Assembly: GCA_038087875.1 (NCBI GenBank)
Contig: CM075992.1
Coordinates: 7,132,001 to 7,196,000, forward strand
DNA length: 64,000 bases
Reading direction: 5' to 3'
Source of the DNA: Malacoraja senta
Taxonomy: Eukaryota
Shown here: piece by piece, positions 5,616-63,176 of the stretch
Position numbering within the stretch: position 1 is the stretch's first letter
Layout: every line of letters begins with the position of its first letter
Translations under genes and position numbers: made by a program
The notes under the pieces: model-generated
The model's input: the letters and a program-made list of their open reading frames with translations, nothing else
Told to the model about the DNA's origin: nothing
Database searches by the model: none

Positions 5616-6237
5616 GGTGCAAAAGTACTTTAAAAAAATAAAAAATTGAGGTCGGGTAAGGGGGGATGATAGTTGAAGAGTTGGTATGTCCTATTTACGT
5701 GATGCTCAAAAAAAAAACATTTGTTTTTCTTTTTTTTCTCTCTCTCTTTTCTTTTCTTAGGGCCTATTTCTTAACTCTTTTTTTTTTTTGTTTTTAATTT
5801 CGCTTTCATAGGGTCCTCGTCCTTTTTTTTTTTGTTGTTACATTTTCTACACTTTTCTACACTTGCACTTTTTCCTTCACTTTCTTCTCTCTTTCAATCT
5901 TTTCTTTCTTTAGCGTAAAAAAAAAAATAAAGGGAGTACATTAATTGTAAGAAGATATAAATGACGAGTATTAATGTATGTGGCTGTGATGTAATGTACT
6001 TCTAATAAATAAAAATTAAAAAAAAAAAAAAAAATAACTATTTGTTTTTCGATATAATGACTTTAATGTAATTAATATCCCAAGGCACCTCAGGAGCATT
6101 GACAAATAAAATTTCACACTAAGTCAAGCAATCAAAAGCTTCATCAAAGAAGTAGGTTTCAAAGAGCACTTTAAAGGAGAGTCTGAAGAAGGGTCTCGAC
6201 CCGAAACGCCACCGATTCCTTCGCTCCATAGATGCTG

Positions 6238-7649
6238 CGGGGAATTACAGACCAGTTAGTCTAACATCGGTGGTGGGGAAAATTCTGGAGTCAGTTATTA
6301 AAGATGGGATAGCAGCACATTTGGAAAGTGGTGAATTCATTGGACAAAGTCAGCATGGATTTATGAAAGGTAAATCATGTCTGACGAATCTTATAGAATT
6401 TTTCGAGGATGTAATAGAGTGGATAAGGGAGAACCAGTGGATGTGTTATATCTGGACTTTCAGAAGGCTTTCGACAAGGTCCCACATAAGAGACTAGTAT
6501 GCAAACTTAAAGCACACGGTATTGGGGGTTCAGTATTGATGTGGATAGAGAACTGGCTGGCAGACAGGAAGCAAAGAGTAGGAGTAAACGGGTCCTTTTC
6601 AGTATGGCAGGCAGTGACTAGTGGGGTACCGCAAGGCTCAGTGCTGGGACCCCAGCTATTTACAATATATATTAATGATCTGGATGAGGGAATTGAATGC
6701 AACATCTCCAAGTTTGTGGATGACACGAAGCTGGGGGGCAGTGTTAGCTGTGAGGAGGATGCTAGGAGGCTGCAAGGTGACTTGGATAGGTTGGGTGAGT
6801 GGGCAAATGCATGGTAGATGCAGTATAATGTGGATAAATGTGAGGTTATCCACTTTGGTGGCAAAAACAGGAAAGTAGACTATTATCTGAATGGTGGCCG
6901 ATTAGGAAAAGGGGAGATGCAACGAGACCTGGGTGTCATGGTACACCAGTCATTGAAAGTAGGAATGCAGGTGCAGCAGGCAGTGAAGAAAGCAAATGGT
7001 ATGTTAGCATTCATAGCAAAAGGATTTGAGTATAAGAGCAGGGAGGTTCTACTGCAGTTGTACAGGGTCTTGGTGAGACCACACCTGGAGTATTGTGTAC
7101 AGTTTTGGTCTCCTAATCTGAGGAAAGACATTCTTGCCATAGAGGGAGTACAGAGAAGGTTCACCAGACTGATTCCTGGGATGGCAGGACTTTCATATGA
7201 AGAAAGACTGGATAGACTCGGCTTGTACACGCTAGAATTTAGAAGATTGAGGGGGGATCTTATAGAAACTTACAAAATTCTTAAGGGGTTGGACAGGCTA
7301 GATGCAGGAAGATTATTCCCGATGTTGTGGAAGTCCAGAACTAGGGGTCACAGTTTAAGGATAAGAGGGAAGTATTTTAGGACCGAGATGAGAAAATCAT
7401 TTTTTACACAGAGAGTGGTGAATCTGTGGAATTCTCTGCCACAGAAGGTAGTTGAGGCCAGTTCATTGGCTATATTTAAGAGGGAGTTAGATGTGGCCCT
7501 TGTGGCTAAAGGGATCACGGGGTATGGAGAGAAGGCAGGGATGGGATACTGAGTTAGATGATCAGCCATGATCATATCGAATGGCGGTGCAGGCTCGAAG
7601 GGCCGAATGGCCGACTCCTGCACCTATTTTCTATGTTTCTATGTTTCTA
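6238..7649 (+). mobile_element. 5'-truncated CR1 LINE (RT C-terminal half and 3' UTR), inserted into a Penelope-derived repeat
   Basis: [35 protein letters not shown]; (TTTCTATG)n tail; frameshift near 6412 and TAG at 6815; the host repeat resumes at ~7650. Confidence 0.95.
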
Positions 7650-7781
7650 ATGCCTCACCCATTGAGTTTCTCCAGCATTTTTGTCTACTTTCGATTTTTA
7701 CAGCATCTGCAGTTCTTTCTTAAACACTTTGAAGAAGCATGCGGGTGAGGCAGTGTAGCTGCAAATAATCAAATAATGATA

Positions 7782-8700
7782 GGTAGACAAAAATGCTGGA
7801 GAAACTCAGCGGGTGCAGCAGACTCTGAAGACGTTGCCTATTTCCTTCGCTCCATAGATGCTGCTGCTGCAACCGCTGAGTTTCTCGAGCATTTTTGACT
7901 ACCTTAGAATTTCCAGCATCTGTATCAAATATCATTTATTGTCATTCAGACTTTTCAGTCTGAACAAAATTTCGTGCCTTGCAGTCATAACATAGAATAA
8001 AATAACAAAACACACAATAAACACAGATTTAACATCCACCACAGTGAGTCCACCAGGCCCTCCTCACTGTGATGAAAGGCAAAAGTCTTAAGTCTTTGTC
8101 TCTTCCCTCCTTGTTCTCCCTCTGCGTTGAGGCGATCCAAGCTTCCGATGTTGTGACCCCACCGGGTGATGGTAAGTCCTACGTCTGAATCCGAGCTCCG
8201 CAAACAGGCCGGTTTAAACTCCGCGGCCCGGGGCAGTCGAAGCTGCCACCCTCCAGTCCAGCGGACGAAGCTGTTGTTGCGGGAGCTCCGGAGAACAGGT
8301 TACCAACCTGGGACCTGCGAGCTCCCGACGTTATCGTCCACTGGGCCCGCGGCCGAAGTCGGGTCGCCGCCGCCGCCGCAACAGCCCCGAAGTCGGCCAG
8401 CCGCGCATTGGTAAGTCCTGGCTGGCTCTGCCTCCGGAGCCTCGAGGTCGGTCCCAGTTGGAGGCCGCCAGCACCGCCATTAGGCCTCAGCGCAGACGAC
8501 AAGCAAAGGTCGCATCCCCGCCAAGAAAGAGACTAAAACAGTTTCTCCCACCCCCCCACACATACACAACTAAAATAAAACTGAAACAAATTGTGATAAT
8601 GGGACGAAAAAACAACAAAAAAGAAAAAACAAATGGACTGCAGGCGAGCCGCAGCTGCTAGGGCAGCGCCGCCACTTCCATCTGCAGTTCCTTATTAAAC
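7782..8700. mobile_element. Penelope-derived fold-back repeat with a 14-bp TSD, interrupted by a second element
   Basis: Inverted GTAGACAAAAATGCTGG... arm plus forward arm; TSD ATCAAATAATGATA at 7768-7781 and 8701-8714. Confidence 0.8.
7923..8678 (-). mobile_element. Non-coding ~756-bp retro-element (SINE-like or internally deleted Rex1/L2-type)
   Basis: CATCTG TSD at 7917-7922 and 8679-8684; minus-strand 3' end ...ATGACAATAAA with a short tandem tail; GC-rich body; no RT ORF. Confidence 0.7.
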
Positions 8701-9672: not shown

Positions 9673-11355
9673 CGGATGAGGCTATCATCCGGTGGTGATA
9701 AAAGAAAAATAAATTAATACAAAGCTAACTTACAACTGACGTGGCAATGAAATATACCCTTGTTCTTGATAGTCAGGATTAAAGGTTAAGCAGTAAGGCT
9801 CAGCCATGTTATGTAACATGGTTATACCAAAGATAGACACAAACTGTTGGAGTAACTCAGCAGGTTAGGCGGCATCTCTGGAGAAAAGGAATAGGTGACG
9901 TTTCGGGTCGAGACCCGTCTCCAATCTCGACCCGAAACGTCACCTATTCCTTTTCTCCAGCGATGCAGCCTGTTCCTACTGTGTTACTCCAACCTTTTGT
10001 GTCTATCTTTATATAACAATGCAATGGCTCAAGAGGAGCCTGCTGCTCCTTTGTTACCATGCACTACACAAGGGTGAAAGGCCTCTAGTTATCGGTGTTT
10101 CACTGTTGATAGAAACCACCCTATCAGTGTGCCTGCAATGGGATTCAACATTCATTACGTCTGAGGGAATCATACGTGCAATCTCTGTGAAGTTCTGCGG
10201 CATGTGCCAAGCTGATTATAGTCACACTCCTTCTCTCATGGTCGCTATCAACAACAGACATAAGCTGTATATATTAACATTTCCATGCAGGAATGATTTA
10301 GATCAAATATTACCACTTTCCCATTACAAAGGCACAAAATGCTGGAGCAACTCAGTGGGTACATTCCAGGAGAACATAGATAAGTGATGTTCACAAAATT
10401 GAAGATAAATTATTGACTAATTTAGGAGATTAACTAACTTCTCGGGAGGAGGGCTAATAGGCAACTGGTGCAGTATGCAACTTTAACAATGCATTATTTT
10501 TATTAACAACTTAGAAACAATACACAATCATATATGTAGTGATGTCCCGCTAAGTTACTCCAGCATGTTGCGTCTATCTACAGAATCATATATGTTCGCT
10601 TGCTGATATCACAAAAAGTATTAACACTCTCACGAGTATAGAAGGAGGCATAGAATAACAAGGGAGACGTGAATAGAAACCTGGAGACATATTCTTGAAT
10701 GGTAAAAGATATGGCAAATAGTTTTCAATATAGTTCAGAATTGCTTGAAAAGTGATGGAATGATGCAGGAAACCGTTTGCTTATAAGTTCATAAGGGCAC
10801 CACTTATATACACAGATTATTAAAATGTAATGACTCTGTCTGGCGACAGTAATGCAGGGTTTCGACCTGAAATATCAACCATTCCATCCCCCTTCCCCCT
10901 CCTCCCTCAATGATGCTGCTCGACCAACTGATTTCCTTCAGTAGATTGTTTGTTGCATTAAAATAATACTGGTCAGGTTAAAAAAAAACCTTAAAGACTA
11001 ATGGAATGCAAGCCTTTATTTTTAAGAGGATTAGAATGCAAAGGGGTAGTAGAGGATACACTACACCAGCAGAAAACATTGGCTAGTGAATATATTAGTG
11101 CTGAAAGTTGTTCTGGGCATCAAATCCAAGGAAGGATATATTGGCCTTTAAGGAAACAGGGTCTAGGTATCTAATCCCATTTCTCTAAGTGATGAAAAGA
11201 CGGGTTGAGATCAAAAAGATTCCAATGAGGTTGCTAGTTCAATCACACATTCTCTTTTGTGTAGTAAAGAACTGCAGATGCCGATTTCGTTTAAATCGAA
11301 GGTAGACACAAATGCTGGAGTAATTCAGCGGGACTGAAGTCGAGACAGAGTCTGA

Positions 11356-11555
11356 NNNNNNNNNNNNNNNNNNNNNNNNNNNNNNNNNNNNNNNNNNNNN
11401 NNNNNNNNNNNNNNNNNNNNNNNNNNNNNNNNNNNNNNNNNNNNNNNNNNNNNNNNNNNNNNNNNNNNNNNNNNNNNNNNNNNNNNNNNNNNNNNNNNNN
11501 NNNNNNNNNNNNNNNNNNNNNNNNNNNNNNNNNNNNNNNNNNNNNNNNNNNNNNN
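11356..11555. other. Assembly gap (200 N), flanked on both sides by Penelope-derived repeats
   Basis: Run of N. Confidence 1.
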
Positions 11556-12239
11556 CTGGAGAGAAGGAATGGGTGACGTTTCAATCAGAAGAAGGGTCTC
11601 GACCCGAAACATCGCCCATTCCTCTCCAGAGATGCTGCCTGTCCCGCTGAGTTACTCCAGCATTTTGTGTTTACACGATGTGACTGGCTTCCTTAACTAA
11701 CCTTTCATTCATGATCAAATGGAATCCCTTTTAATATTTGTAATTTTACACAAAGATTCTATGAAGTCCAGAGATTTTCCACATTCATCTCTAACAAAAG
11801 CTGATATTGTGTTGGGCTACTGAGGAACATGTTTTTTTTCCTGACCCCTGTCATTTTTGCTGTGGATTATGCTCACATTTATAAGGTATTTACCCTAATG
11901 CATGTTGACAGTCAAACCCTGTACTCAATCAAGCAGCTCTGAATTTCCCCAAAACCTCTTTTTCTCCTAGTACTTTACTCTGGATAACAATCAGATTTAG
12001 AAATTACAACTGAAAAGCAATCCTTTAAACAAACTCTGAAACATAAGGGATAAAGAGATTAAACTACCATTCAAACTTTGAGTAGATACAAGCATATATC
12101 TCCAAATCCTAGGCAAGCTGAACACAGAATAGCGGATAGATACAGTATACATTAACCATGTGCTCTCAATGCACACTTTCATGCATCTGGCCACAGTTCA
12201 TGATGCAGTTTGACAATAAGAACAATGATTGCCCAGCGA

Positions 12240-15030: not shown

Positions 15031-18000
15031 TGTAAAGTCAATCTTAAATCATTCAAGAGGCAGTGGAATGCTGTGTCAAAAAGAGCTTACGTTTCCATGC
15101 AAGATATCTTTTCATCTACACTTTAATTTAAGTACTGGCATCAAAATGACTGGACATTCTGCTTTAAAAGTTTCTGCCAAGCTGGTGCACACGATGCACT
15201 TCACATTTTCACTCAAAAGCAAATGATGCATCAAAGCCTCAGCACTTATGAGTGGTTTTCAAATAGGAAAGGACACCAATAAATTCAAAATTCTCACAAC
15301 TCGATGCTTTCCACTTATTCCAATGAGGAACCTACAATTCTCAATGAAACTAACCATTAACCACAATGAACACAGGAACACATAATGCTGCAATCTGCCC
15401 ATATCTACTCAGTTTAAAAAAGTGAAAACTTGCCAACAACTCAGATTCTGCAGGAATGTCAATATCAAACAGATCAATCACAAAATTCAACGCTTTTCAG
15501 TTAATATTTCCAAACCAGATGATGTTTGTTTAGGAAAATTCAGAACTGCTTGATTAAGTGGAGAGAATCAAAAGACAGCAGATGCTGATGTCTGGAGGAA
15601 ATCTGGTAATCCAGAGGAAGGGTCTCAACCAGAAATATTGACGGTTCATTTCCCTCCACAGATTCTGCCCGACCTGTTGAGTTACTCCAGCAGTTTGTTG
15701 TTTGCTACTGAATTACCGTATGTGCAGACTTAGAATATTCTTCACCGTCATCTGGTCAAAATCCTGGAACTCCCTCGCTAACACAATTGTGTCCGCACCT
15801 CAAGGATGGCAGCGTTTCTAGAAGAAAGCTCACCACCCACCACCTCCTGAAGGGCACTCAGGGATTGGCAATTAAATGATGGCACGGCGTGCAAAACCCA
15901 CAACCCTTGAACGAATAAAGAAAATACTGTAATGTGTTTCTCCCTTGTATATATTGTAAATCCCTTGTACGTCTGTAAATCATCCAGGTTATAATTTTTG
16001 AAGCTGACTCTACGTTCAATTTCCACAAAGAACCCGATTTAATTCTGCTATGCAATATTATATACAATTTAAACCTCCAAGGAAAAATTAAAAAAAATCT
16101 ATGAGAAGATTTAGATAATGTTCAGTTAATTTTCATGTGATAGAAACAAGGAACAGCAGATCTTAGTTTACAAAAGACACAAAGTACTGGAGTAACTCAG
16201 TGGGTCAGGCAACACCTCTCGAGAACATGGATAGATAACGTTTTGGGTTGGGACCCTCTTCCGACTAATGATTTTCATGTGATAATAGGTTCTGACACCG
16301 TTTAAGATACATTGACACCTCTTGCAGTCGACAGTAATTGCACTAATTAAAGATTTGACTTGACTGTAACCAGATGTGATAGATGCTGGATAGGTTTTGA
16401 AGCACTGCTTCTATCAAATCAACAAATGTTAGTCAGAAATAAAACATTCAGACACAAATTTGTATGTGAGCTTTTCATTCCAGGGTCAAAAAATGGCATT
16501 AGAGGTGAATTTTACATTTCATTCCCCAGTACATTAAACACCTGCTCGTTCTACTCCAACACACAAGAGCATGCTAGAGAAAATGTTTTGGTCTGACAGA
16601 TTATCTTCAAGTCTGCAATAACACTAGAGGTTTATTTTCTACGATTCGTGCTAATTTTTAATCAGATAACCTGAAATTTAAACGGGGTGGGGGGGGGGGG
16701 GGGGGGGGGAAGGGAAAAGAAATATCACAGGCCACTCAAACCACTTGTCACATTAGAAGCAACACCATTTCTAGTAAAATAGCCCTTTGCAACATCAAGT
16801 TTTAACCCAGTGGAGACATTAGCCATCAGGTCCACATAAAATGCTTTTATTTTTTCAACTTCATTTCTGAAGTTCCAGTAATTAAAAACAATTAAATATA
16901 TTACTTTGCTGGCTTATATGATTACAGATCAATCTCATTAGTGTCTGGCGTGCATTGAATCCTAAAAAGAGTTGGTGAAAAGTGTCTGATCATTTCAGCC
17001 TCTCGTGGTTAAATGACAAAGGTAAAAAAAAACACTAATATCAAAACGAGATGTGAAGAGGGTTGATGTAGGAGGAAGAGATCCAACCTTGTCATCTCCA
17101 GTAAGCTTCTGCATGACAAATTAAAAGACAGTTACAACCCCAACAATCCTATGGGGTCAACTATTGCATATATTTGAAACAATTTTAATTCTGCTTAGCA
17201 ACATTAAACTGGCACTAGTTTTGAAAGCGCTGCCTGTAGAAGTCTCTGAACTGCCAGTTAATCATGCAAACACGTGACCAAATTTAAAAAAAAAACACTT
17301 TAAGAGAGAATAGTGAGAAGACAAGTGGGCCATTTATGGTCAGAAATAAATAGAATATTGGCAAATTTTAGAAGAGGTGGAATATACAAAATCATGGCAG
17401 AATAGCTTATACTAATTGTGCAAGATACCCTGATGCCGAGGACACATTAAAATCATCACATCTTTTCTCTTATTTACTCACTAATATTCAGAAAGAAATT
17501 GGGTAGTTATGAAACAGCACACCACTGTCACCTTAAAAATACCAGCACAACATTTGATCAATTAAGGAATGAGTATTTGAAAACCAAGCCCTTTCTTGGA
17601 ATTGAACTCATGGTCTGCTGAGCAGCATTGATTCCTTATTTGAGATATGGACTATTTACAGCAGGGATCTCAAGGCCAGGAAAAATACAACTAATGCAAA
17701 TGCCTTCAAATTTTACTCAAAGGATAAATAGATCAACATCCCCAGCATGAAATGCCTTGTTATTCTTAGTTGGACAGGACACAGCGTTCACATGGCTGGG
17801 ACATGATTCCCAAAGCAAATGCTCTTTTCTAAGCTATGTTCTGGGAGAGGAATACAGGACAGACAGAAAAAAAGAGGATATGTTCAAAGATTTCTTGGAG
17901 AAATGCAACATCCCAGTGACTACTGTGAACCTTTGGCGACTGACAAAGAAGAAAAATACATTTTCATAGGTCTGAAGCCGTTGAAGTTTGTTTGAGGACA

Positions 18001-21000
18001 GTTAACTGATAGATGACTATTTGTACTGTGAACCATGAGTGACAAAGAGTTACGGCTTCTTCCAAGCCTATGATTCAGGGAATTAATTGATCATGAGCTT
18101 GGGTGACATAAGCTGCAACAGTTCTTTTAGTTGTCCTTTAATGAGTAGCTGTGCTGATGATTATGAATGATACTGCTAAAACAGCAGTGTTCTGATGATA
18201 TATCCTACGCTCCATCCATACAGTGAATCACATTTTTTCCAATTGGCTTATATCAGACAGGCATTTTAAAGACATTTGTTTTAGGGAACAGTCACTTATT
18301 GCTCATACATGGTCTAGAGTCTGATACAGATGAGAGATTTAACTGATTTCACCTCATGCCATACAGTAATTTAGATAATTGCAGGGAATTATAAATTGCT
18401 AAGGCCATATAGAGGTTGGTAAATTTTAGCCTTCAGCTCAATGACTGACCATTTATTTTTATAAAAATAATTTATGATGTCTTACTATATATAAATAACA
18501 CACGACTTTAAAAAACAACCATAACATGGTACAAGTGGAAGATATGCATTTATTGTAACATTCAATGCAAAGTGTACACCAGACTTTCACATTACAAGCT
18601 CAAATATCCTATCTGCAAAATAAACATACAGCCAACAAACCAAATAAGGAATCAAAGCCTATTAGCTTTAGCAAACTATTGTAAAAGAGAAGTATAAATG
18701 ATCAAATGACTCAATCATTTCAGTTCCACAATTTCAAGAATTAACTTTTAGCAGTCAATTTGAAAAATTGTATTTTTGACCTAATTTTAAAAGTAAGTGC
18801 TAACAATATCAGGAAGCCTGGCCTAAATGTACCAACAATGATTAATTAGCACCTTGCTTGTGTGAAAATTGAAATAACTACATTTGCACTTAGCTCCATC
18901 ACAAAGTCAGGTCCAGTTACTTCCCCAGACAATGAGATGGTGCTTAGCCCCGTCTGAACAAACTACTAAATCTTTAAAAACATTCATAGCAAAATAAAAT
19001 AACAAGATCAACCATATAATGAAAGTTGGAGACTGAAAGGGAACACAAACTAAAATGGATGTACCATTTTGATTTTCTTTCCATTGATGCTGCCTGGCCC
19101 TGATGGTTTTCATTCTTTTCTATCTTTATGCATTTGCTCATTTTCATTCCCTGTCCTCCATCACCTGATTCAATATATTTTAGCATGTGCACTGCAACAA
19201 CTCTCTGAATCAAAACATATTTAGTTGTATTTTCTTTGCACACCTAATACAATGCTCAATCACAAACATGCATTCATTCATTCATTCATTCATTACCCTC
19301 CATGATCATAGCTTAATTCATCTCCTTACTCCACCTGTCCATGCAGACACAACATGAACATCCCTTGCATCTCCCTTTACCTATTAATAGCCTTTCACTA
19401 GGCTCAACACAGTAACTCAATTATAAAAGAACACTGTTGGCCACAATACATTTTGGAGTTCAGCAAAGTTGCAAAAGATGCAATATAAATACAAAACTTT
19501 TACTATCTCTTTGCCAACTCCAGTGTCTCTTTCTGTAGTACATGCTGTGCAAGTAATTCATGGCAGCACAGCCCAGATGTAAATAATCAGCCACCAGATA
19601 GATTATTAGCCTGGGAAAAGTCACAATATGGCTCTGCTGACGCACATCCCGCAAATTGAGTCACAAAGTGGGCTGCAAAGTGACAAGGCATGAAGAGTTA
19701 TCAAATAGGACTTCACAGGTTTTGTGATGAAATATGATCAGTCCTTTTTTGCAAGTTTTGACGTATTTCCTTATGCACCATGATTCTAAAGGATGTGTCT
19801 GTCCAACACACACAACATCTGTCACCCATCGTTTTAACTGGGCAGTTAAAATGACAGGCAACTTTAATAAATCTGAAACAAATTGGCAAGCCCATTACTG
19901 TGGACAGCATCTGTGAATCTATCAGTGGCAGAAGCTATGGGTGCATCGAGGACAAATGTCCCTGGTTGCAAATGGCCAACCCAGCATGAACCAAACATTG
20001 AAAAAGTACATTATCAATTTGTAGTGCTCGGTTAAATCATGAAACTGAAATAGTAGAAACCTACCAATTTCTGTACATTGCCAAAACATTTTAAAATAAG
20101 AGGAACTAGGATATCTTTACAGATCAGACACAATGGCAAAAAGCATAATGTATACTGATATTACAAACAAAATTTCTGCTATTTATGAAGTTGGATTTTA
20201 AGCAATTTTCACCTCTTCTGGACCCAAATATTTCCTTGAAGCATCCATAAAAGATAAATCAGTTTGTGTTCACACGACATACTAATGAAGACTAATACAA
20301 GACTAAGACTTGACAGGATCCGAAAATAAAAACGGCTTATTCTTGGTGATTCTTTTTTTTTGCACAAGAGATATCAATTATCCATTCATTTTAATTAAGT
20401 AAGTTTATTGGCCAAGTATTCACATACAAGGAATTTGCCTTGGTGCTCCGCCCACAATTAAGCAGTGGAAAATCAGCAAAGTGGGAATTTAATGATTAGA
20501 ATCATGTTCTATAAAACATTAGGAATTTGGTAGTGCCAGACTAGCAGATTTTCCAGACTATCAAATGTTTTTTCTTATCAGTACCCAGTCTGACGAAGGG
20601 TCTTGACCCGAAACGTCGCTAATTCCTTCTCTCCATAGATGCTGCCTCATCCGCTGAGTAATGCCTCATCCAGCATTTTTTGTCTATCATTACTTTTATT
20701 TCATTCTTTTTACATGTTACACAATAGTATAATAACAGGTCATGTCAACCCATAAGTTTAAAGGGGGTAAGAAATACAGAAGCACTCTAGACTCGGGGGC
20801 CCTGGCTGCAAATCCACCCACGTTCTTGGCTTCTAGTCTTCCAGGAACTATTCCTGGCTCCACCCTCACATCTGGCCCATTGTTCAGACCTCAGAACCCC
20901 AGCTCTGGCAACACACCCTGCTTGCACTCTGGATCCTGAATCACATTATGGACAAATTAGTACACCAGATGCCAGACTCTGACGATATCTGAACTGGATT

Positions 21001-24649: not shown

Positions 24650-25865
24650 GTTATCATGCAACAGAATCATCCTACCACAACCAGAGTGCAAATCTGTGTA
24701 GGAAGGAACTGCAGATGCTGGTTTAAACCAAAGACGATGACAAAATGCTGGAGTAACTCAGCGGGACAGGCAGCATCTCCAGAGAGAAAGAATGGGTGAT
24801 GTTGCGGTCGAGACCCTTCTTCAAACAACTACTATCTACCTCTTTGGTGACCTTCGGACTATCCTTGATCAGACTTTGCTGGCTTTACCTTTCACTGAAC
24901 ATTATTCCCTTATCATGTATCTACACACAGTAAATGGCTCGATTGTAATCATGTAATGTCTTTCTGCTGACTGGACAGCATGCAACAAAAAGTTTTTTGC
25001 TTGGGCAGCTTACAGCCCAGTGGTATGAATATTGATTTCTCTAACTTCAAGTAACCACGGCATCCCCTCGCTATCCCTCCCCCACCCAAGTCGCACTTGC
25101 TTCTCGTTTTCACCCAACAAACAGCTATCAAACAATGGCCTGTTTCCTTTACAATCGTTACTTTTTTTTTTGCAGATCTTTCATTCATTGTTCTTTATCT
25201 CTCTACATCAGGGGTTCCCAACCTTTTTCATCCCGTTTACCCCGGCAACTTTAATAACACATAACAAAGGTAGACAAAAATGCTGGAGAAACTCAGCGGG
25301 TGCAGCAGCATCTATGGAGCGAAGGAAATAGGCAACGTTTCGGGCCGAAACCCTTCTTCAGACCCAAAACGTTGCCTATTTCCTTCGTTCCATAGATGCT
25401 GCTGCACCCGCTGGGTTTCTCCAGCATTTTTGTCTACCTTCGATTTTCCAGCATCTGCAGTTCCTTCTATAACACATAACAATGTTATTTCACTTGTTGA
25501 TGTACAACTAATGATGAACAGAACCAAACACAGTCAGTCAATGAGAAAATTATATATACAAATCCAGAATCAACAAATTTACCACTTGGGTAGGCGAAAT
25601 TTACCCCAGGTTGGGAACCATACTACATCACCGTCTATATCTCTCGTTTCCCTTATCCCTAACAAGTCTGCAGAACGGTCTCGACCCGAAACGTCACCCA
25701 TTCCTTCTCTCCAGAGATGCTGCCTGACCCGCTGAGTTTTTCGTGTCTATCCTTCTTTTTGTGTGTCTATCTATCTTCGGTTTCAACCAGCATCTGCAGT
25801 TCCTACACAAAAAGCTTTTCACTGTACCTCGGTACACGTGACAATAAACTGAACTGAAACTGCAC
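24650..25865. mobile_element. Nested cluster: Rex1/L2-type 3' end > Penelope 3' end > hAT-like MITE > Penelope fold-back
   Basis: PLE C-terminus LGSLQPSGMNIDFSNFK* at ~25000-25057; CAGGGGTTCCCAACC…GGTTGGGAACC ends at 25209 and ~25620; inner hairpin 25268-25469 with TSD TAACACATAACAA. Confidence 0.7.
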
Positions 25866-44349: not shown

Positions 44350-45161
44350 GTGAGTTCCATTACAGTCGCATGTTGTGTGGCACATAGAGACAAGGAACTC
44401 CAAAGTGCACGATTACAAGCGAGACATCTACGATGTACAGTAAAGGGAATGACATGAATAACATTAAGCAAGGCACCCATCAGTGGTATTTAATTACTCT
44501 CTTCTATATGTAATTCTCTTTGGTTGCTTGGCTGAGCACAGTTCCAATCTCACTCAAGAAGATTGGCATTTTACAGGACAATCAGACCATCCAGACAATC
44601 AGGACAAGCACCCCACTAAATATACTACCTGACCATTCACGCCGTCGTTGATGCACACAGCTGCCACGTGTACCATCTACCAAATGCACTGTGATTACTC
44701 GCCCAGGCTTGACCACAATACCTCACTAACCCATAAACACTAAGTCTAGAGAGGGTAGAAGGCTTTTTATCCAGAGACACTGTCTGACCCACTGAGTTGC
44801 TCCAGCACTTTGTGTCTATCTTCGGAATAAACCAGCACCTGCAGTTCCTTTCTCACAAACTATAAGCACTAGCAGCTGGAAGGGCAAGCATACGGAAACA
44901 CCACCATCTTTCTTTTCTCTCCTTATCACGAATTGGCCTGACTTGGAAATGTAAGGCTGTTTTTTCATCGTTGACGGGTCAAATCCTGTACGTTCAGTAG
45001 TTCAGCAGCAGCTCAAGAAGGCTGCCCTTACCGTCTTCTGAAGGTCACTTAGGGATAGGCAGTAAATACTACTGGGACAAAATGCTGGAGTAACTCAGCG
45101 GGACAGGCAGCATCTCTGGAGAGAAGGACTGGGTGACGTTTCTGGTTGAGACCCTTCTTGT

Positions 45162-45189
45162 CTGAAGAAGGGTCTCGACCCGAAACGTC
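45162..45189 (+). ncRNA. Minimal hammerhead ribozyme-like motif in a Penelope-derived repeat (best-preserved copy)
   Basis: CTGAAGA-A-GGGTC-TC-GACCC-GAAAC-GTC; other good copies at ~20590-20617 (+), ~30990 (+), ~25334-25361 (-) and ~47784-47811 (-). Confidence 0.65.
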
Positions 45190-45420
45190 ACCCATTCCTT
45201 CTCACCCATTCCTTCTCACTATAGATTCTGTCTGTCCCGCTGAGTTACTCCAGCTTTTTGTTTCTATCTTCGGTGTAAACCAGCATGTGCAGTTCCTTCC
45301 TACACTGTAAATATACTGGGCTTGCTTGACACACTAACATCCAAAAAATGAATAAGGAAATAAAAGTGCGAATCGGGTAAGAAAAACATGATAAAAACTA
45401 ATATATTTTTCGTGGTTTAG

Positions 45421-45580: not shown

Positions 45581-46381
45581 ATCTAATGGGTCACATTCCG
45601 TTTTGCTCCTTTATATTAATCAGGCAGTGCTGACTCCCGAATGGCGCAATGGTCCCATTGCCCCTCATTGTGTGGACGCAAATCCAATTTTTTGAAACGC
45701 TTCAAAATGCCAGTGTTCACCGGGACAGGCAGCATCTCTGGAGAGAAGGAATGGGTGACGTGTCGGGTCGAGATCCTTCTTCTGTAGACTCGAAACGCCA
45801 CCCATTCCTTCTCTCCAGCCTGTCCCGCTGAGTTACTTTAGCATTTTGTGCATATCTTCGGTGTAAACCAGCATCTGCAGTTCCTTCCTACACACGTTTT
45901 CACCGGTCCTTCCCGTTTCCCGTCAGCTATCCAGCTTTGATCTCTATCTCTATCGCCGACTTGAGGGACCCAATGGTTTCCCCACAGCACCCTCTACCGT
46001 CGGCGATCAGAGCGCAGACTAATAGGTAGGTGGACTGGGTTCACCAACATCATAGCTCATCACAGGTAGACTGGCTTCCAGTGTGTAGCGTTGGCTCATT
46101 CTTGCCCCCCCCCCCCCACCTTTCCTCGCTCTCCTTCCATCTTCCACATCTCCAGGGTAGACGCAAAAAAGCTGGAGTAACTTAGCGGGTGAGGCAGCAT
46201 CTATGGAGAGACGGAATTATCGACGTTTCGTCCTCCATCTCTATCCTGATCATTGTGGTACCGTTCCTTTATGCATTGTTCCAATAAACACATTTCTCAC
46301 ACTCCATCGTCTTCAGCATGTGCTTTTGCAATGAAGTTTTAATCGCCTTTCCTCTGTGGGTTTGTGAGAACAGCATACATC

Positions 46382-46805: not shown

Positions 46806-47718
46806 GGAAACCCCATATGTTAAATGATTACCACTTCTGCAAAGTTCTCAGCTGCCCTCCTCGTGTTCCACTCTCACCTCCCTCATGTATATGGGAGACC
46901 AATCGGCGCCGGGGGCTGTTTAATGGCCGGGACTTTAATTATAGGATTATTCACCAAGACTTGAAATTGTAAACGCTGCTGAAACCGGTTTAATTTTACT
47001 TGCTAACCACGATTCTTAATAAAATGGCTTTTTGTTTCCAGTTCCAGTTCTGGAATGTCATGAGTAACAGATCCAAATTCCCTAATTTTGGGTAAACCCT
47101 CCTTTTCATCCCTTTCTCCCCCCCTCCCCCCACGCCGATGTTCACCCATTCCTTCCTCTGTCCCGCCCCTCGCAATTCCTCTTTCACCTTTATTGCTCCC
47201 CCCTTATATTTCACTCCCCTTCTCCCCCTTTTGTCTTCTTTCCATCTCTAGCCTTTGCCCACCCATCAGCCAATAACCACCACCCCCATACCTGTATCCA
47301 CCTATCATTTGCCGGGCTTTGTCCACCTCTTTTCCACCTTTCACTTCCCTACTACAGTCAGTCATGGACGAAATTGTAAATGGGTTGGTTGGGATTGCTG
47401 GGGTCGTGGACTGTGAGGAACGCTGTCCAAGTATACAGTGGGATATAGATCAGCTACAGAAATAGGCGGATGGAGTTTAATTCGACCAATTGTGAGGTGT
47501 TGTACTTTGGGAGGTCAAATCGATGGGTGAAATATACAATTAATGGAATGTCACGACAGCATTGACGTACAGAGGGATCTTGGGGTCCGTCCATAACTCC
47601 CTGAAAGTGGCATCTCAGGTAGATAGAGTCATAAAGTAGGCATACGATATGCTTGCTTTCGCAGGTCGCATTGAGTGGAAGAGTCAGAAATAAAATGATG
47701 CAGCTTTATAGGACAGTG

Positions 47719-48003
47719 GTACACAAAAATGCTGGAGAAACTCAGCGGGTGCAGCAGCATCTATGGAGCGAAGGAAATAGGCAACGTTTCGGGCCGAAAC
47801 CCTTCTTCAGACTGATAGGGGGTGGGGAGAAGAAAGGAAAAAAAGGCGGAGGAGGAGCCCGGGGGCTGGGGGATGGGAGGAGACAACCAGAGGGCTGATG
47901 AAGGGGAGGGGACAGCAAGGGCTAGCAGAGTTGGGAGAATTCAATGTTCATGCCCCCAGGATGTAGACTGCCCAAGCGGAATATGAGGTGCATTTCCTCC
48001 AAT
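47719..48003 (-). mobile_element. Penelope-like 3' end (inverted), same subfamily as 30641-31117
   Basis: Reverse complement of LEEMHLIFRLGSLHPGGMNIEFS, UTR and hammerhead repeat. Confidence 0.88.
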
Positions 48004-51637: not shown

Positions 51638-53294
51638 CTGGAGAAGGAGAGAGATGTGAATTGGAACGAGTGGGCAGTGTATAATTCAGGAAGGGATTCT
51701 TTCCAATGCCCGCGTTCCTCCTGTTGATCGGTGGTTAAATATTTAACTGCAGCTTTATACCTTTATAATTAAACAAGTAGCGTTAAGGTAATGGTGCCAG
51801 GGTTGGATTCCTTGCATGTTCCTGCTCGTACCATCATCCATCTATGATGCTGCAGATATTTTGTTCACAGACACTGAAGTCCTTTCTTAGTTTTATCTCA
51901 TATTTCAATCATTCCTACAAAGACCCAGGAATTGGACGCAGGTGTATTCCGAGGAAAATTCCTAGACAATTTAGTGGATTTCTGCAGCCCGATTCCAGCT
52001 TAGTTTCATCCCCACACTGCCGCCGCTTTGTCAACTAGACCATCCAGTGTTCCCGAAACTCAATGTAAATCCCCATCTCTTGTTCTTGCTCCTCGCGTCT
52101 GTCAGCTTGCATTTCCCCACCCTCCCTTTTATCTGCCACTTGTCTGACCATTAACTCCCTGTCCATGACTCCGTTTCTCTCTCCACATGGGCTTCTCGAC
52201 TTGCTGAGTATTGCACTTTCACAGATCTCCCAAGTCCACTGCGAGTTTTATGCTGTATTGTAGGTTTTTCAGTTTTAGTTTGGTTTAATTTAGTTTAGTT
52301 TAGCTTAGAGATACAGCGCGGATACAGACCCTTCGGCCCAGCGATTCCGCGCCGACCTGTGATCCCCGCATTTTCACACTATCCTTTGTTTCGTATCCAC
52401 AAAACTTTTGTTCTCCCTCTTTTTAAACCGGAGAGGCAACATTTTTACTCAAAAGGTGGTGGAATGGAATGAGCTGCCAGAGGAGGTAGTTCAGATAGAT
52501 TTAATAGCAATATTTATAATACACCTGGTACATGGATAGGAAATATTCAAGAGGGATATGGGCCAAATGCAGGCAATTCCAATTCAGGAGTCACTCGGGC
52601 GGCGCAGCGGTGGAGTCGCTGATTTACAACGCCAGCGACCCTGACTACATGCGCTGTCTGTGCGATCCTGACTAGAGGCGCTGTCTGTGCGGAGTTTGTA
52701 TGCTCAACCTGGGACCTTGTGGGTTTCCACCAGGTGCTCTGGTTTCCTCCCACACTCCAAAGACGTGCAGGTTTTCAGATTGTGTAGGAAAGAACTGCAG
52801 ATGCTGGTTTAAATCGAAGGTAGTCACAAAATACTGGAGTAACTTAGCGGGACAGGCAGCATTTCTGGAGAGAAGGAATGGGCGACGTTTCGGGTCGAGA
52901 CTCTTCTTCAGCTGAATGTTGCCTATTCCTTTCTTCCAGCGATGCTGTCTGTCCTGCTGAGTTACTCCAGCATTTTGTGCCTACCCAGGTTTGTAGGTTA
53001 ATTGACTAATTTGAAAACTGTCCCTAGTGTGTAGAATAGTGCAAACGTACAGGGTGATCGCTGGTTGGCACTGACTCGGTGGGCCGAAGGGTCCGTTTCC
53101 ACGCTGCGTCTCTAAAGTCTAAAGTCTAAAGATGCATCCGAGAAAAAACAGAGGTCGTTGACTGGAAACTAAGGGTTAGCGGGAGGGCAACACGAGATTT
53201 ACTGCACAAAACTTGAAATTAACAAGTTAACAGGGACCTCCAGGAATGCCGTGGGTAAAGATACCTCACTGTGGGGATATAAACCAACACTCAC

Positions 53295-53401: not shown

Positions 53402-53706
53402 CTGCCGTATAAACAACAGCGTCCATATGAACAGATTTTGTAGTATTAGTGACACGACAAACATATTATTTGGCCCTGTATCGGGACACAATGGGTCACG
53501 GCAGTCAATGGGTTAAAGTGGAGAGTGGGCGAAGGCAGAACAAACTATGTTGCAAACTGGCTAATTAGAGAAACACGTGTCTCAGTTACAAAACAATTTT
53601 AGGTCGGTACAACCCCCCCCCCCCACACACGCGATATTCTTCCATCTTACCCCACACCCACGCTTTCTCCCCTCCCCTCTGTCCAACCTGGTCTATTAAC
53701 CTATTT

Positions 53707-58227: not shown

Positions 58228-59290
58228 TGTTTCACATGTGGAACATATTTACATATAATCTCGCGTATACAGCCTTTCTCATGACATGTTCTCATTTACT
58301 GAGCATGTCATCTCTTGAAATGACTGCACAGATTAATGCTGACGTTGCTGTGTTGAACTCACAGCATTTAAGATGAACGATAGAAACAAGAGCATTGTGG
58401 ACCAGTGAAACATTATCGGGGTGAGGTGAAGGTGTGTAGGAGCTCGTAAAGGGTTCGACCGTAAGTGGTCTGACTATCAGCTGACACCATAGTCATTCAG
58501 TTGGGAATAATTACCCTTGTTATTTATGCATCATCAATGTCAGTGTCCATTAATAGCTACCCCTTATTTTCCACATGGAATGTGAGGAATGAGATGCCCG
58601 AAGTGAGACAGAAATGTAAATAAATGTAATGCAAAAAAAAAAAAAAAAAAATCCTACCTGTGCCCTGTCACTATCAATGACCACAAGAGTAGCGTTCATT
58701 ACGGTACAGAGATTCTGAGCTTCATTCCATGTTTGTTCAGTGGACGAGAAGAAGTAAAGGGTTTGATTGAACAGCCTCCATTGGTCGAAAGGCTGGCCAA
58801 AGGATAGATCTACAAAGACAGTTAGATCAATGTTAGGTGTAAGAAGGAACTGCAGATGCTGGGTTAAATCGAAGATAGACACAAAAACTGGAGTAACTCA
58901 GCAGGACAGGCAGCATCTCTGGAGAGAAGGAATGGGTGATGGACGTTTCGAATCGTCACCCATTAATTCTCTCCAGAGATGTTGCCTGTCCTGCGGAGTT
59001 ACTCCGGCTTTTTGAGTTTACCTTATATAAATGTTATGATCAGCTGGGCAGTACCGACCTTCACAAATCTCACTGCTCACCCGTGTTTCACATGTGGAAC
59101 ATATTTACATATAATCTCACGTGTACAGCCTTTCTCATGACATGTTCCCATTTACTGAGCATGTCATCTCTTGAAATTACCACACAGATTAATGCTGACG
59201 TTGCTGTGTTGAACTCACAGCATTTAAGATGAACGTTAGAAACAAGAGCATTGTGGACCAGTGAAACTTTATCGAGGTGTATAGGAGCTT
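58228..59290 (+). repeat. ~200-bp direct repeats (58228-58445 and 59084-59290) flanking lectin B CTLD exon 1
   Basis: Near-identical TGTTTCACATGTGGAACATATTTAC…GACCAGTGAAAC blocks. Confidence 0.92.
58658..58809 (-). CDS. Lectin B CTLD exon 1 (152 nt)
   Basis: LSFGQPFDQWRLFNQTLYFFSSTEQTWNEAQNLCTVMNATLVVIDSDRAQ; TTTGTAG| and |GTAGGA. Confidence 0.9.
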
Positions 59291-60618
59291 GCGGCTGTTA
59301 AGCATAAACATTGTGGTCAATGGAACATCTGATTCTTCTCCGGGTTTAATGGCGGTGGCCGGGTTCAGCGAATAAAGGTAGTTCGTGGACCCTTGGGGAC
59401 ACGTTGGAGCCCAGACGTTGCTACGAGCAGTTTCAGTTACACAGGCGTCACCCAGAGAATTGGACATCGCTCACCCCGAAGTCCAGCTGAAGAGCAGGTC
59501 ATCTGATGTGAGCCATCCTGTGGTTGTGGATGCTAGCCATGACCTGGCCCGCGGTGGACCCCGGTTCCAAATTTGCAGGGCACCCCCAGAAACGGGGGCT
59601 GAAATCCAAGCCTTCATGCTGGTTTACAGCTAAAGCCATGATCTCACTGAGTAGTTTCATGTCTATTGCACGACACGCAAAAAATAACAACTGGTGCATT
59701 GGTGGAAGACGAGAAGACCATTGACTACATGGAACTTGGAGGATCTCAGCCGAAATGTTGCTCGCTCAATACAACTTCATGATGACAACACAACTGGTGT
59801 CACAGAAGGTGATCAATCTCGAAGTGTTGATGAAATCACACAGGTACAGATCCATGTTATCTCATCACTTGCCGGTGAGATCCCACCACTCAATTACCAC
59901 CATTACGAGAGCAACTTGGATCAGGTGGAAATTATCCTCTACCCCTGTCAATTTGGAGGGGAAGGGGGGAAACTGCTCACAACAATTCCGATCCATTCAG
60001 AGACTAGAGGATATGGGACGATGATCAATTTTTAGCCCTCGCATTGTCAACATTCAGATAGTTCCCAGGTTGAATGATTCAATGACTGGAGTCGGATCAG
60101 CTGGTCATTGAACTTACCTTCCCTTAGCCGTGAAACCACAGCCTGGATTTCGCCGATTGAGTGGTGTATCTTCTCGAAGGCTTTCGTTTATCAGCTTTCG
60201 TTTATCAGCCCCATTCCTGCCCTCGCTCTAAATTTGCCCGGCGAACGCTATGCTACTCCAACACAGGAATTTCCGTTTTCCCTGGTCCACGTGTCACTAG
60301 ACTTACCGGATTCCCGATTCCCACTCTACCCGACACTCACTGAGTTTCCCAGCTCCCCCCAAGAATTACTCATTCCTGCGCCCTGCTGATTCCCCACAGA
60401 TCCTACCCTCCACAAACTCACGTGTCCACGCTCCAACGCGGCTCGGTGATAGATTTTACATTTAGTCAGTTTTCAGCATTCTGAAGTTGGTCTCGAATCT
60501 TCAAGTAAGGGAATGAAATGCGGACCATCTCATCGCGAGGGTCTGGTGAATGACTGCCCCATATATTCGGCTCGACAATTCTCTGAACTGGAGAGTGCAA
60601 CTTCACACTTATCATTAC

Positions 60619-60687
60619 TCCTCCACTTGGAAACATCCATAAGGTAGTCAGCATTTGATATCTTCACTTCACTGAACTTGTGTTTGA
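60619..60687 (-). CDS. Lectin B neck exon (69 nt, weak GTAATG donor)
   Basis: TTTCAG|; KHKFSEVKISNADYLMDVSKWR; phase 1-1; patterned like the lectin A neck exon. Confidence 0.6.
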
Positions 60688-63176
60688 CTGAAATGGGAAA
60701 AAATATTTGACACTCACATGAATATCTCGAATCGATTTACCTCGGAGCTCTCCTTTTGCCCATAAGGTCTTGTTAGCTGGGTCATATGATATATAAAACA
60801 GGGAACATTTGCTGGAATACAACATTAACTAGACCATAGACTGGATTGCGTGCTTAGCTCTGGTTGTCACGTCACTGTAAAGTTAAAAATGCACCCGTGA
60901 GGTCGCAGAGGAGACTTAAGAGGATTGTGATTCTGGTCTCTGGCGTAGAGAAAGTTGAGTGTTGACATATCAGTTGTATTAAATAATGTGGGGCCTTGGA
61001 GTAAATAGAAATGATCTAATTACCCGAGCGGTGAAGTCAAAAGCCAATGGAATGGAAATAGAACGAAGAGCGAGAGATGAAGGCACGATTTGCACCCAGT
61101 GTGTGAAGGAGAGAAGAGGCAGGAACTCTCAACACATTTTTAACAATGCCCGGATTTCAAAAACCATCATGCAGTACTTGAAGTTGGCATTAGGCTGACT
61201 TTTCTAATTTGATTGTTATAGAATAATTTTCCAAATTGCCTTTACTGCACTGGGCGTTCTCCGGGGCGACAAACAAATCCCCAGTCCTAGGTTTCCCCGC
61301 AAACTCCTCAGGGATTGTTCAATCATGATTCAGTGTAAAGTGCAGTAAGCTGTCTTGCAAGACGTTCCTCTGAACTGGCAACATTGTAAAGTAAATTTAA
61401 TATCAGACAGAACATGAGCAGGTAAAATAATTTGGTCCCACACACCTACCCTGATAATGTTCAATGATGACGAAGTGTCTCCCTAAAGAACATATTCCAT
61501 TTCCCCTTTATTTTGACTAACGTTTTGTATTGGACCAATGTTCCTTAACATGGAGAAAGGTTGGAAGTGGAATTCCAAGGACTAGAGATCTTCCAAATTG
61601 TTTTGATGCTCTTGTGTAAGGGGTTGTGCAATCCCAGGGACTTCGGATTATTTGTGCAGCCTTCACCAGGCCTGGACTGGTCAAGTTGCCAGTGCAGTTT
61701 CCTAGAAAGAAATGTGAGTTTTGGCGAGGAAGATACATGTATTTTGTATGAGACGGGGCTTCAGGCATAGAGAAATATCACCAAAAGCTGCAGTGTGTGG
61801 CCAGCGGTGAGTGGGCTATGGAACCAGCCAGGCAGAAAAGAATGAACATGCGTTGCATCTGATAAGCAAAAACTTCAATGTAAACCAAGGTCTCCAGGTC
61901 GAGATTCTGTTCCCTCCACATGTCCAAGCAGTGGAACATCAGAAGGCTCAGGCCGTCCTACAAGGGGGACAATCACCAGAGCTTCCAGAAGACCTTCGCC
62001 TTGCTACGGGAGGCGTGTGTGTGGTGTGTGTGTGTGGTGGTGGTGGTGGTGTTGGGGGGTGGGGGGGCAACAAAAAATAGCTGTTCGGAAAACAAAACAT
62101 GGTTTACTTGGCCAGGGTGGGGCGTCAGAGTGAGGGCGCATAATAAAGAGGTGGGGAGAGGCGGAAGAGGAGGAACTGGCGGGAAGAGTAGGAAGTACAT
62201 AGTACTTCTGCAGCCTAGTCTAGCTACAGACTAATAATTCTGTGGAGTAACACCATGGGGCAGCTTGAGTAGGCACAATAAATGGATCAAAAACATAAAC
62301 TTCTTAGGGACACGATAAGATAATCGAATGTTTGCTGTACTGCTCGTCTAAAAGCAAGGGCATATTTCGATCTCCCATTTTCTGGGAAGTATTATTCCTA
62401 CCTGTCTGCAGGCAGCCCCACAAAAAGGAGGCAATCGGTAGTGTGCAACCGAAATGCTGAAAAAATTTCAGTGTTTTCTACTTCTCCCCCATCCAGCCGG
62501 ACCAAATTGCATCTTTGGACTGCCCCTTTAAATGCTGGAGTTCAGATTTCATCACGGGCCTCTGCTGCCGGTTAGAGAGGCGGGGTTAATAATCACAGGG
62601 TCGATCAGTGAAAATGCCTTTGACCGAGGGAATTAACCGCTTGGTGCCTTCGATACTGTACTGTACACCTCTATGCACAGTAAACTCCCATTAATATTAT
62701 GACTTTTTAAAATGCACATTAAGTGGAATTGCTGTTTGTATTATTATTACCACCTATACCACGCAATAATGAGATGGTGTGTCTGCCTATTAAATCATGT
62801 CATACATGAGTTCAATCAAGCTATACATGAGTACAACAATGCAAAGAGAGAAAAAACTGCACACTATAGCGATATCGCATTACAACGTTAAACTTACAGA
62901 AAGAAAAGTGTAAAATACCAATGAAGTCGATTGGAAGATCGGGTTTGCAGCCTGGCTTGTGGGAGGACGGTCACTTACATTATGAATACATGCTGATTTA
63001 TATATAAGACAGACACAACATGCTGGGGTAATTCAGCGTGTCAGGGAGCATCTCTGGAGAAAAAGGATGGGTGACGTTTCGGACCCTTCTTCACACACAT
63101 ATGCATTTCCTTTTATTAATTTATAGTCAATCACATCTGCGACTCGTTTCAAAGTTTAAAGTTGCACAAAACTTAC

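What the first reader, a model, noticed from the sequence alone, without database searches (positions are those of the whole stretch)
6181..63090. Window-wide family of Penelope-derived repeats carrying a minimal hammerhead ribozyme core
Seen: roughly 30 copies (hand count) of a ~130-bp repeat, many retaining CTGAnGA-A-[GGGTC/GACCC or GGGTT/GGCCC stem]-GAAAC-GT(C/T). At 30641-31117, 47719-48003 and ~25000 it is attached to a GIY-YIG C-terminus, which ties it to Penelope-like elements. Known: the hammerhead core is CUGANGA…GAAA…NUH, and PLE termini carry minimal hammerheads whose palindromic stem III (ACGU) is thought to act as a dimer. Here stem I is only ~2-3 bp and there is an extra A after A9. 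Inference: one of the commonest short repeats in this genome is a ribozyme-derived module, with at least two subfamilies (GTC vs GTT triplet) showing stem II variation that preserves pairing.
Basis: partly seen in the sequence, partly recalled or inferred. Interest (0 to 1): 0.7.

Follow-up and report, generated by a model that had tools for sequence, protein, structure and literature searches.

The report
Penelope-end stubs with minimal hammerhead motif
This skate-like genome region is littered with short leftover ends of a known jumping gene that begin with a minimal self-cutting RNA motif; most copies are decayed or folded shut, so it is a new example of a described pattern, useful mainly as a record of how these elements insert.

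Summary
The repeat is real: 47 profile hits in 34 loci, 6.8% of the window, none in controls. It is the terminal ~95-130 nt of Neptune-like Penelope-like elements (PLEs), attached to a GIY-YIG C-terminus three times. Source lineages carry a textbook minimal type I hammerhead (extra base after A9, ACGU palindrome), described for metazoan PLEs (PMC4209133). Stem II variation is one-sided, not compensatory; within one subfamily the core decays like its flank. The anatomy argues against these copies acting as ribozymes: no tandem neighbours, 11 of 12 close neighbours are head-to-head and fold into long hairpins, and no copy starts at the cleavage site. Copies start at the core and end at two sites ~35 nt apart, the known PLE 'tail'. 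Best reading: short cDNAs from uncleaved RNA, often primed from both nicked strands. Cleavage and expression untested. New member of a known kind.

The parts
6180..63097 (.). Span of the repeat family: 47 profile hits in 34 loci, at least three subfamilies
30635..31117 (+). 5'-truncated PLE, subfamily A: GIY-YIG C-terminus (30642-30845), pyrimidine-rich 3' region, module from ~30985 with tailed end; core lacks base 17
47718..48003 (-). 5'-truncated PLE, subfamily A: GIY-YIG end (48002-47931), intact minimal hammerhead (C3 at 47810), tailless end
25000..25808 (+). 5'-truncated PLE, subfamily B: GIY-YIG end, 3' region split by a nested insertion, module at 25664-25808 (core damaged); 13-bp target-site duplication
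25209..25621 (.). Nested ~413-bp element with short terminal inverted repeats that splits the subfamily B copy and hosts an inverted pair (hAT-like label is recalled, from no call)
25267..25470 (.). Head-to-head pair, subfamily A: minus arm tailless with intact core (C3 at 25361), plus arm tailed starting inside stem II; arms 75 of 78 identical; 16-bp flank duplication with one mismatch
45077..45304 (.). Head-to-head pair, subfamily B: plus arm tailed with intact core (C3 at 45162), minus arm tailless; lies in an intron of a C-type lectin gene
45723..45892 (.). Head-to-head pair, subfamily B: tailed plus arm, very short minus arm
52783..52984 (.). Head-to-head pair: tailed minus arm (core bases intact, stem II mismatch), tailless plus arm
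58838..59020 (.). Head-to-head pair joined at the GAAA strand; tailed minus arm, short plus arm
11262..11678 (.). Head-to-head pair across a 200-N assembly gap; tailed minus arm (assumed continuous across the gap), tailless plus arm
9822..10009 (.). Head-to-head pair, both arms short (ends +103 and +95)
7781..7922 (.). Head-to-head pair, subfamily A, with internal deletions (ends +93 and +111)
6180..7727 (+). One module split by a LINE reverse-transcriptase fragment: 6180-6238 plus 7651-7727; 13-bp flank match with two mismatches (read by eye)
20586..20692 (+). Solo tailless copy with intact core and 3-bp stem I (C3 at 20590)
16140..16267 (-). Solo tailed copy of the older subfamily C, core decayed, 16-bp target-site duplication

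Best explanation
The repeat is the pseudo-LTR end plus tail of several Neptune-like PLE families of a skate-like fish (shown for PLE origin; clade inferred from relatives). The source elements keep a minimal type I hammerhead that can at best cleave as a dimer or with help from protein (inferred from the literature; not tested). The dispersed copies are dead-on-arrival cDNAs: the element's RT starts inside its RNA at one of two sites about 35 nt apart (about +92 and +128 from C3; shown as two end classes), copies through the uncleaved ribozyme (shown: copies bridge the site, none starts at it) and usually stops at the 5' edge of the core, most likely the RNA's own 5' end at an initiator-like TCAGT (inferred). 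When both nicked target strands prime, one at each start site, the two cDNAs join head to head, giving palindromes with one tailed and one tailless arm between a duplicated target (inferred). After insertion the motif decays neutrally and, in palindromes, is locked in a long hairpin, so these copies are not working ribozymes.
For: PLE link in three copies; window fragment 85%, 77% and 65% identical to Leucoraja and Chiloscyllium proteins with GIY-YIG hits below Pfam's cut-off; linker CX2-5CxxC in 56 of 61 scorable relatives, the Neptune/Nematis marker (PMC8557442). Core better conserved than downstream columns across subfamilies (25 of 293 vs 351 of 2180 mismatches, p=5e-4) but not within subfamily B (13 of 146 vs 100 of 1001, p=0.77). 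5' starts of 39 hits without native upstream: 20 at model position <=10, 11 at 11-30, 0 at 31-39 (cleavage gives 35), 8 at >=40. In public contigs, summed depth steps up at the module start and listed joints land at 30981-30992; heterogeneous loose ends lie at 31073/31082 and 31117 in runs of three organisms. 11 of 12 neighbours within 150 bp are head-to-head, 0 tandem (p=2e-6; 8 abutting pairs vs 1.0 expected). 6 of 8 abutting pairs have one tailed and one tailless arm, 0 of 8 have two tailed arms. Flank duplications score >=10 in 5 of 27 units vs 6 of 702 mismatched pairs. Hammerhead fold costs 30-33 kcal/mol in the two palindromic intact copies and 8-9.5 in the two others. Anolis PLE: both strands nicked and extended, two internal RT starts define the tail, uncleaved RNA is the substrate, cleavage needs protein (PMC11167929).
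Against: No cleavage, transcription-start or expression data. The tailed/tailless asymmetry is not significant alone (p=0.22, or 0.09 counting the +111 arm); 2 of 8 pairs do not fit cleanly and one spans a gap. Only 1 of 9 inverted units reached a flank score >=10; one of the five high scores (26724) is a match to the core itself. No strand-change joints appear among the 15 joints shown (51 not shown), so palindromes were not confirmed genome-wide. The depth step in relatives partly reflects subfamily-specific upstream sequence. The initiator-like motif is also a splice-acceptor-like and a near-palindromic motif. No frame of the module matched an N-terminus among 155 fetched proteins, so overlap with the ORF start is unshown. 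The profile was built from window copies, which biases where alignments begin and end; copies are not independent samples.
Confidence: 0.72

Rival explanations
1. Fold-back rather than twin priming: one cDNA (or an antisense template) self-primes at the near-palindromic TCAG-T-CTGA or at stem II and copies itself; the 5' boundary marks a template-switch hot spot, not the RNA's start.
For: Junctions lie in or at the core and several are palindromic; arms are 86-96% alike; self-priming on an antisense template was proposed for head-to-head PLE palindromes (PMC3846280, passages).
Against: Solo copies share the same 5' boundary without any inversion; short arms end in the same zone as solo tailless copies, including the non-inverted long copy at 47718, which fold-back does not predict.
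Confidence: 0.25
2. The ~130-nt unit is a non-autonomous, retrozyme-like mini-element amplified from tandem master loci in which dimeric hammerheads cleave and circularise the RNA.
For: Single contigs join the tailed end back to the module start (31109-31118 to 30984-30992) in runs X1, X8 and X18, one at depth 217; solo copies far outnumber copies with upstream sequence (39 vs 8); non-LTR retrozymes derive from PLE ends and were found in one chondrichthyan (bioRxiv 10.64898/2026.07.22.740005).
Against: 0 tandem neighbours in the window; monomers cut by the ribozyme would begin and end at position 17, and none does; most joints carry unrelated letters between the units.
Confidence: 0.12
3. Many dispersed copies are active ribozymes that cut host transcripts, for example the C-type lectin pre-mRNAs they sit in.
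For: 4 copies meet the descriptor; one (45162+) lies in sense in a lectin intron.
Against: Neutral decay within subfamily B; that copy is in a hairpin with P(stem II)=0.00; nearest same-strand core-intact copies are 1.7-22 kb apart; minimal monomers were inactive in vitro (PMC4209133).
Confidence: 0.04
4. The boundary is a splice acceptor: as in Drosophila virilis Penelope an intron ends at helix I and the spliced RNA gets a longer stem I.
For: Upstream 40 nt are 72-88% pyrimidine in the 8 copies with native upstream, followed by AG in most; intron end maps to helix I in D. virilis (PMC4209133).
Against: Solo copies share no upstream exon; listed joints keep the AG and none is GT..AG (RNA status of the runs is a guess, 51 joints not shown).
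Confidence: 0.12

Closest known systems
Minimal type I hammerheads of metazoan PLE pseudo-LTRs (Cervera and de la Pena 2014, PMC4209133)
   Same: CUGANGA and GAAA core, extra base between 9 and 10.1, G10.1-C11.1 pair, palindromic 15.2-16.2 with no helix III, mostly single motifs from truncated PLEs, several consensus families per genome, some pairs on opposite strands.
   Different: Stem I of only 2-3 bp (4-5 bp given for Schistosoma; 2 bp in D. virilis) and stem II of 4-5 bp; host is a cartilaginous fish, not named in the two text parts read or in 2 of 3 supplementary files searched.
Canonical EN+ PLE insertion anatomy (Craig et al. 2021 PMC8557442; Arkhipova et al. 2013 PMC3846280)
   Same: Heavy 5' truncation, adjacent inverted 5'-truncated copy, head-to-head palindromes, optional 30-40-bp tail on one end, 8-10-bp target duplications, initiator-like motif in the pseudo-LTR.
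   Different: Here the whole insertion is often reduced to two ~100-nt arms, truncation is concentrated at the hammerhead, and the clearest duplications are 13-17 bp.
Poseidon element of Anolis carolinensis (Frangieh et al. 2024, PMC11167929)
   Same: Hammerhead about 100 nt upstream of two 3' ends; insertions made from uncleaved RNA; AC-rich long end.
   Different: Other clade (relatives here have the Neptune-type linker); there the ORF starts at stem II, here no ORF start could be placed.
Animal non-LTR retrozymes (Li, Clavereau, Pollet, bioRxiv 10.64898/2026.07.22.740005)
   Same: Short PLE-end-derived non-coding units with type I hammerheads, many monomers.
   Different: Defined by tandem units each with a complete hammerhead; none in this window.

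Membership tests
Minimal type I hammerhead (PLE type) | Invariant core C3-A6, G8, A9, G12-A14, A15.1, U16.1 and H17 | tested here: met
   Majority sequence has all; 7 of 47 hits (7 of 21 spanning) keep them
Minimal type I hammerhead (PLE type) | Helix II closed by G10.1-C11.1 with an extra base after A9 | tested here: met
   89% of stem II cells paired in 20 copies; extra A in 26 of 27
Minimal type I hammerhead (PLE type) | Palindromic 15.1-16.1 strand for dimer helix III | tested here: met
   ACGU in 14 of 21 spanning hits by the 15.2/16.2 columns; CpG-prone
Minimal type I hammerhead (PLE type) | Helix I | tested here: inconclusive
   2 bp, third pair formed in 5 of 20 copies; not favoured in folding
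Minimal type I hammerhead (PLE type) | Compensatory covariation | tested here: inconclusive
   Stem II: 1 two-sided cell; whole-structure score 0.239 reached by 2 of 500 shuffles, a control that related sequences can pass; slid controls show as many two-sided cells
Minimal type I hammerhead (PLE type) | Self-cleavage as dimer or with protein | not testable with these tools
   Bench test; in silico the two-strand minimum is an alternative duplex, 8-19 kcal/mol below a partial dimer-hammerhead structure
Rfam hammerhead families | Match to a curated model | tested here: not met
   No hammerhead family among 13 matches at E<=1
EN+ Penelope-like element | C-terminal GIY-YIG endonuclease upstream of the pseudo-LTR | tested here: met
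   Three copies; relatives P0002-P0004 hit GIY-YIG below cut-off, P0012 reaches cut-off for RT and GIY-YIG; the window fragment alone has no Pfam hit
EN+ Penelope-like element | Tail, inverted 5' copy, target duplication | tested here: met
EN+ Penelope-like element | Full RT-EN ORF in this genome | not testable with these tools
   No genome held; none in the window
Neptune clade | CX2-5CxxC linker between RT and EN | tested here: inconclusive
   Present in P0003 and in 56 of 61 scorable relatives; window copies are truncated 3' of it; no tree built; Nematis shares the motif
Non-LTR retrozyme | Tandem units each with a complete hammerhead | tested here: not met
   0 tandem among 12 close neighbours; only single-contig hints elsewhere

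The most novel reading that the evidence does not exclude
Skate genomes hold a very large fossil record of the PLE insertion reaction in minimal form: palindromic ~200-bp inserts made by priming from both nicked strands, one cDNA from each of the two internal RT start sites, both running to an RNA 5' end placed 2-4 nt before an uncleaved hammerhead. This would be in vivo evidence for two-strand priming, would map the element's transcription start from DNA alone, and would show that the hammerhead is selected in source elements for a role other than making the insertion template.
Probability: 0.3. Interest if true: 0.55.

Novelty: new member of a known kind. Interest (0 to 1): 0.3.

Why it matters
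As a ribozyme finding it adds a host group to a described class and little else; about 7% of this window is a decayed PLE end. Its value is mechanistic: how PLEs integrate and what their hammerhead does are open questions (PMC8557442, PMC11167929), and the sharp boundaries and one-tail palindromes, at the copy numbers suggested, would let the two-strand-priming and fold-back models be told apart from one assembly. Practical note: the palindromes mimic microRNA precursors and the module will inflate genome-wide hammerhead counts.

Tried and rejected
Whole-genome copy count: no genome held. Rfam: no hammerhead family; miRNA-precursor matches are below gathering scores and several coincide with the palindromes. 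No RNA holder listed among 24 runs; X18 and X21 are RNA by guess only and all four laid runs are contigs, so expression, start sites and cleavage ends could not be read. Splice joints: none canonical among those shown. ORF start inside the module: no match of 12 translated frames to 155 fetched proteins. My first count of the linker motif (68 of 74) was inflated because the pattern also matched the endonuclease core; redone as 56 of 61. Poseidon clade, my first guess, was dropped because of the linker motif. Isolated motifs fold no better than shuffles (z between -0.74 and +0.47 for 6 sequences), as expected for a minimal hammerhead, so uninformative. The link to mammalian Clec2 hammerheads (PMC6155905 legend) was rejected as coincidence: the motif here is a dispersed repeat, not tied to the lectin genes. 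Lunse et al. 2016 (PMC5785218) is not held; known here only through a citing review (PMC6765202). Searches for a prior report in cartilaginous fish found none relevant: (open-access library only; Repbase and Dfam not searchable). Earlier scan notes: no hit by sequence or by the long word list.
Full report
OBSERVATION. A strict pattern search found only 9 core-like matches that belong to the repeat among 16 matches in the window, so I built a profile from 14 of the more complete copies. It gives 47 hits at E<0.01, with 0 in the reversed window and 0 in each of 5 shuffles. 35 of 47 are at E<1e-10, 28 span 90 nt or more, and they form 34 loci covering 6.8% of the window. Hits are not copies: 6180-6238 and 7651-7727 are one copy split by a LINE fragment, and 11269 and 11556 are probably one arm across the N gap. 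21 of 47 hits span the core; 7 keep all 11 invariant bases and NUH; 4 meet the full minimal descriptor. Rfam has no hammerhead match here.

ORIGIN. The 65-residue fragment at 30633-30827 is 85% and 77% identical to two predicted Leucoraja erinacea proteins and 65% to a Chiloscyllium RT-endonuclease protein (4 hits among 21 candidates), so the host is probably a skate or close relative (inference). The fragment alone has no Pfam hit; the relatives hit GIY-YIG below cut-off, and a full-length relative, P0012, reaches both the RT and GIY-YIG cut-offs. tblastn places endonuclease C-termini at 30642-30845, 48002-47931 and 24983-25048. The third belongs to the module at 25664 across a nested insertion; the whole copy has a 13-bp flank duplication. 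56 of 61 scorable relatives carry the CX2-5CxxC linker, which marks Neptune and Nematis (PMC8557442, passages). The window copies do not reach the linker and no tree was built, so the clade is inferred.

THE MOTIF. It matches the minimal hammerhead of metazoan PLEs, whose published traits include the extra base between 9 and 10.1, the G10.1-C11.1 pair and the palindromic 15.2-16.2 (PMC4209133, parts 1-2 of 4 read; 2 of 3 supplementary files searched, one unavailable and it may list further hosts). Subfamily A has a U.G and subfamily B a U-A at the fourth stem II pair; in 20 aligned copies 4 of 5 stem II pairs vary on one side only. The same G/A variant is common in public contigs (place 31006). 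Across all subfamilies non-CpG core columns differ less from the majority than downstream columns (25 of 293 vs 351 of 2180, p=5e-4), but within 19 B-type copies they do not (13 of 146 vs 100 of 1001, p=0.77) (43 of 47 hits with 45 or more aligned bases used). This fits selection on source elements and neutral decay of copies. Against a ribozyme-specific reading, the free position N7 and many downstream columns are about as invariant.

(1) Orientation: of 12 neighbours within 150 bp, 11 are head-to-head, 1 tail-to-tail, 0 tandem (p=2e-6, and 8 abutting pairs against 1.0 expected). (2) 5' ends: 8 hits, picked by eye, continue into pyrimidine-rich native upstream sequence; of the other 39, 20 start at model position 10 or less (C3 is 7), 11 between 11 and 30, none between 31 and 39, and 8 later, two of which are explained by the LINE split and the gap. 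A template cut by the ribozyme would start at 35. (3) 3' ends fall mainly at about +85 to +104 or +119 to +131 from C3, with a few between. Contigs of public runs show heterogeneous loose ends at 31073 (377 in X8, 66 in X18), 31082 and 31117 (342 in X8, 52 in X18, 10 in X21); the 31073 ends run on like the reference for several more bases, so the two sites are about 35 nt apart (1,244 rows not shown, and no such rows were shown for X1). (4) In 6 of 8 abutting pairs one arm is tailed and the other not; 0 have two tailed arms; this alone is not significant (p=0.22). (5) Flank duplications scoring 10 or more occur in 5 of 27 units against 6 of 702 mismatched pairs; one of the five is a match to the core itself, and only the pair at 25267-25470 among 9 inverted units reaches that score.

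CAN THE COPIES CLEAVE? The pair at 25255-25480 folds into one hairpin of -157 kcal/mol. Forcing the hammerhead fold costs 30 and 33 kcal/mol in the two palindromic intact copies and 8 and 9.5 in the other two. Same-strand core-intact copies are 1.7 to 22 kb apart. Published minimal monomers were inactive and dimers weak (PMC4209133); the Anolis ribozyme needed the element's protein and its mutants did not affect insertion (PMC11167929, parts 1-2 of 4 read; supplementary text gave no hits, figures not held). Single contigs that join the tailed end back to the module start show that head-to-tail neighbours may exist elsewhere.

MECHANISM. Shown: PLE origin, boundaries, two ends, head-to-head pairing, passage across the cleavage site, neutral decay. 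Inferred: internal RT initiation at two sites and priming from both strands, by analogy with the Anolis element, which nicks and extends both strands (PMC11167929); an RNA 5' end at the TCAGT before the core, by analogy with the initiator-like TCACT in a rotifer pseudo-LTR (PMC3846280, passages) and the internal promoter of Penelope (PMC2377424, passages). The vertebrate initiator consensus is recalled and comes from no call. Rivals are fold-back self-priming, a retrozyme-like master, a splice acceptor, and active host-cutting copies.

WHAT IS KNOWN. Inverted 5'-truncated copies, a 30-40-bp tail at one end and head-to-head palindromes with target duplications are described for PLEs (PMC8557442, PMC3846280). 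Retrozymes with type I hammerheads were reported in one chondrichthyan (bioRxiv 10.64898/2026.07.22.740005, parts 1-2 of 5 and passages; supplements closed). I found no paper on this repeat in skates (search listings only; repeat databases not searchable). PMC6155905 and PMC6765202 were seen as passages. An earlier scan note from another genome (e1-7788996) describes the same pattern; it is an unchecked note, not support.

VERDICT. Real feature, correctly tied to PLEs; a new member of a known kind. Interest 0.3.

Noticed in passing
window 43040-45560 (+) and 53300-58760 (-): Two convergent C-type lectin genes: lectin-domain exons near 43088, 44273 and 45491 on plus, 58729 and 53368 on minus (Pfam hits below cut-off for single exons). 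Several repeat copies lie in their introns.
   Followed up: partly
window 1815-5615 (+): Uninterrupted 1,266-residue ORF with endonuclease, RT and zf-RVT domains: an apparently intact L1/Tx1-type LINE ORF2 in AT-rich DNA; related 3' fragments at 28928-29875 and 37274-38221.
   Followed up: partly
window 47967-48836 (+): 289-residue open RT fragment with an ALKBH8_N hit, abutting the 5' end of the PLE copy at 48003.
   Followed up: no
window 25209-25621: Small element with terminal inverted repeats and a 6-8-bp flank duplication, single copy in the window; four nested layers of insertion between 24829 and 25875.
   Followed up: partly
window 53569-57560 (+): Long decayed CR1-like LINE including an ORF1-like segment (no Pfam hit); a 5'-truncated relative at 6239-7650 splits a repeat copy.
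   Followed up: no
window 20586-20630 (+): Variant with C at position 7 lets the two core strands pair with each other, an inactive alternative fold.
   Followed up: no
window 26724-26840 (+): The first ten bases of the core recur directly after the copy's 3' end: target match or start of a second unit.
   Followed up: no
window 25853-26700: GC-rich stretch with GGGCC-type repeats that looks like a CpG island or promoter (translations).
   Followed up: no
window 25290-25416, 45115-45215, 7799-7886, 58896-58999: Palindromic pairs score as microRNA-precursor or plastid hairpin families below gathering thresholds: a likely source of false annotation.
   Followed up: yes
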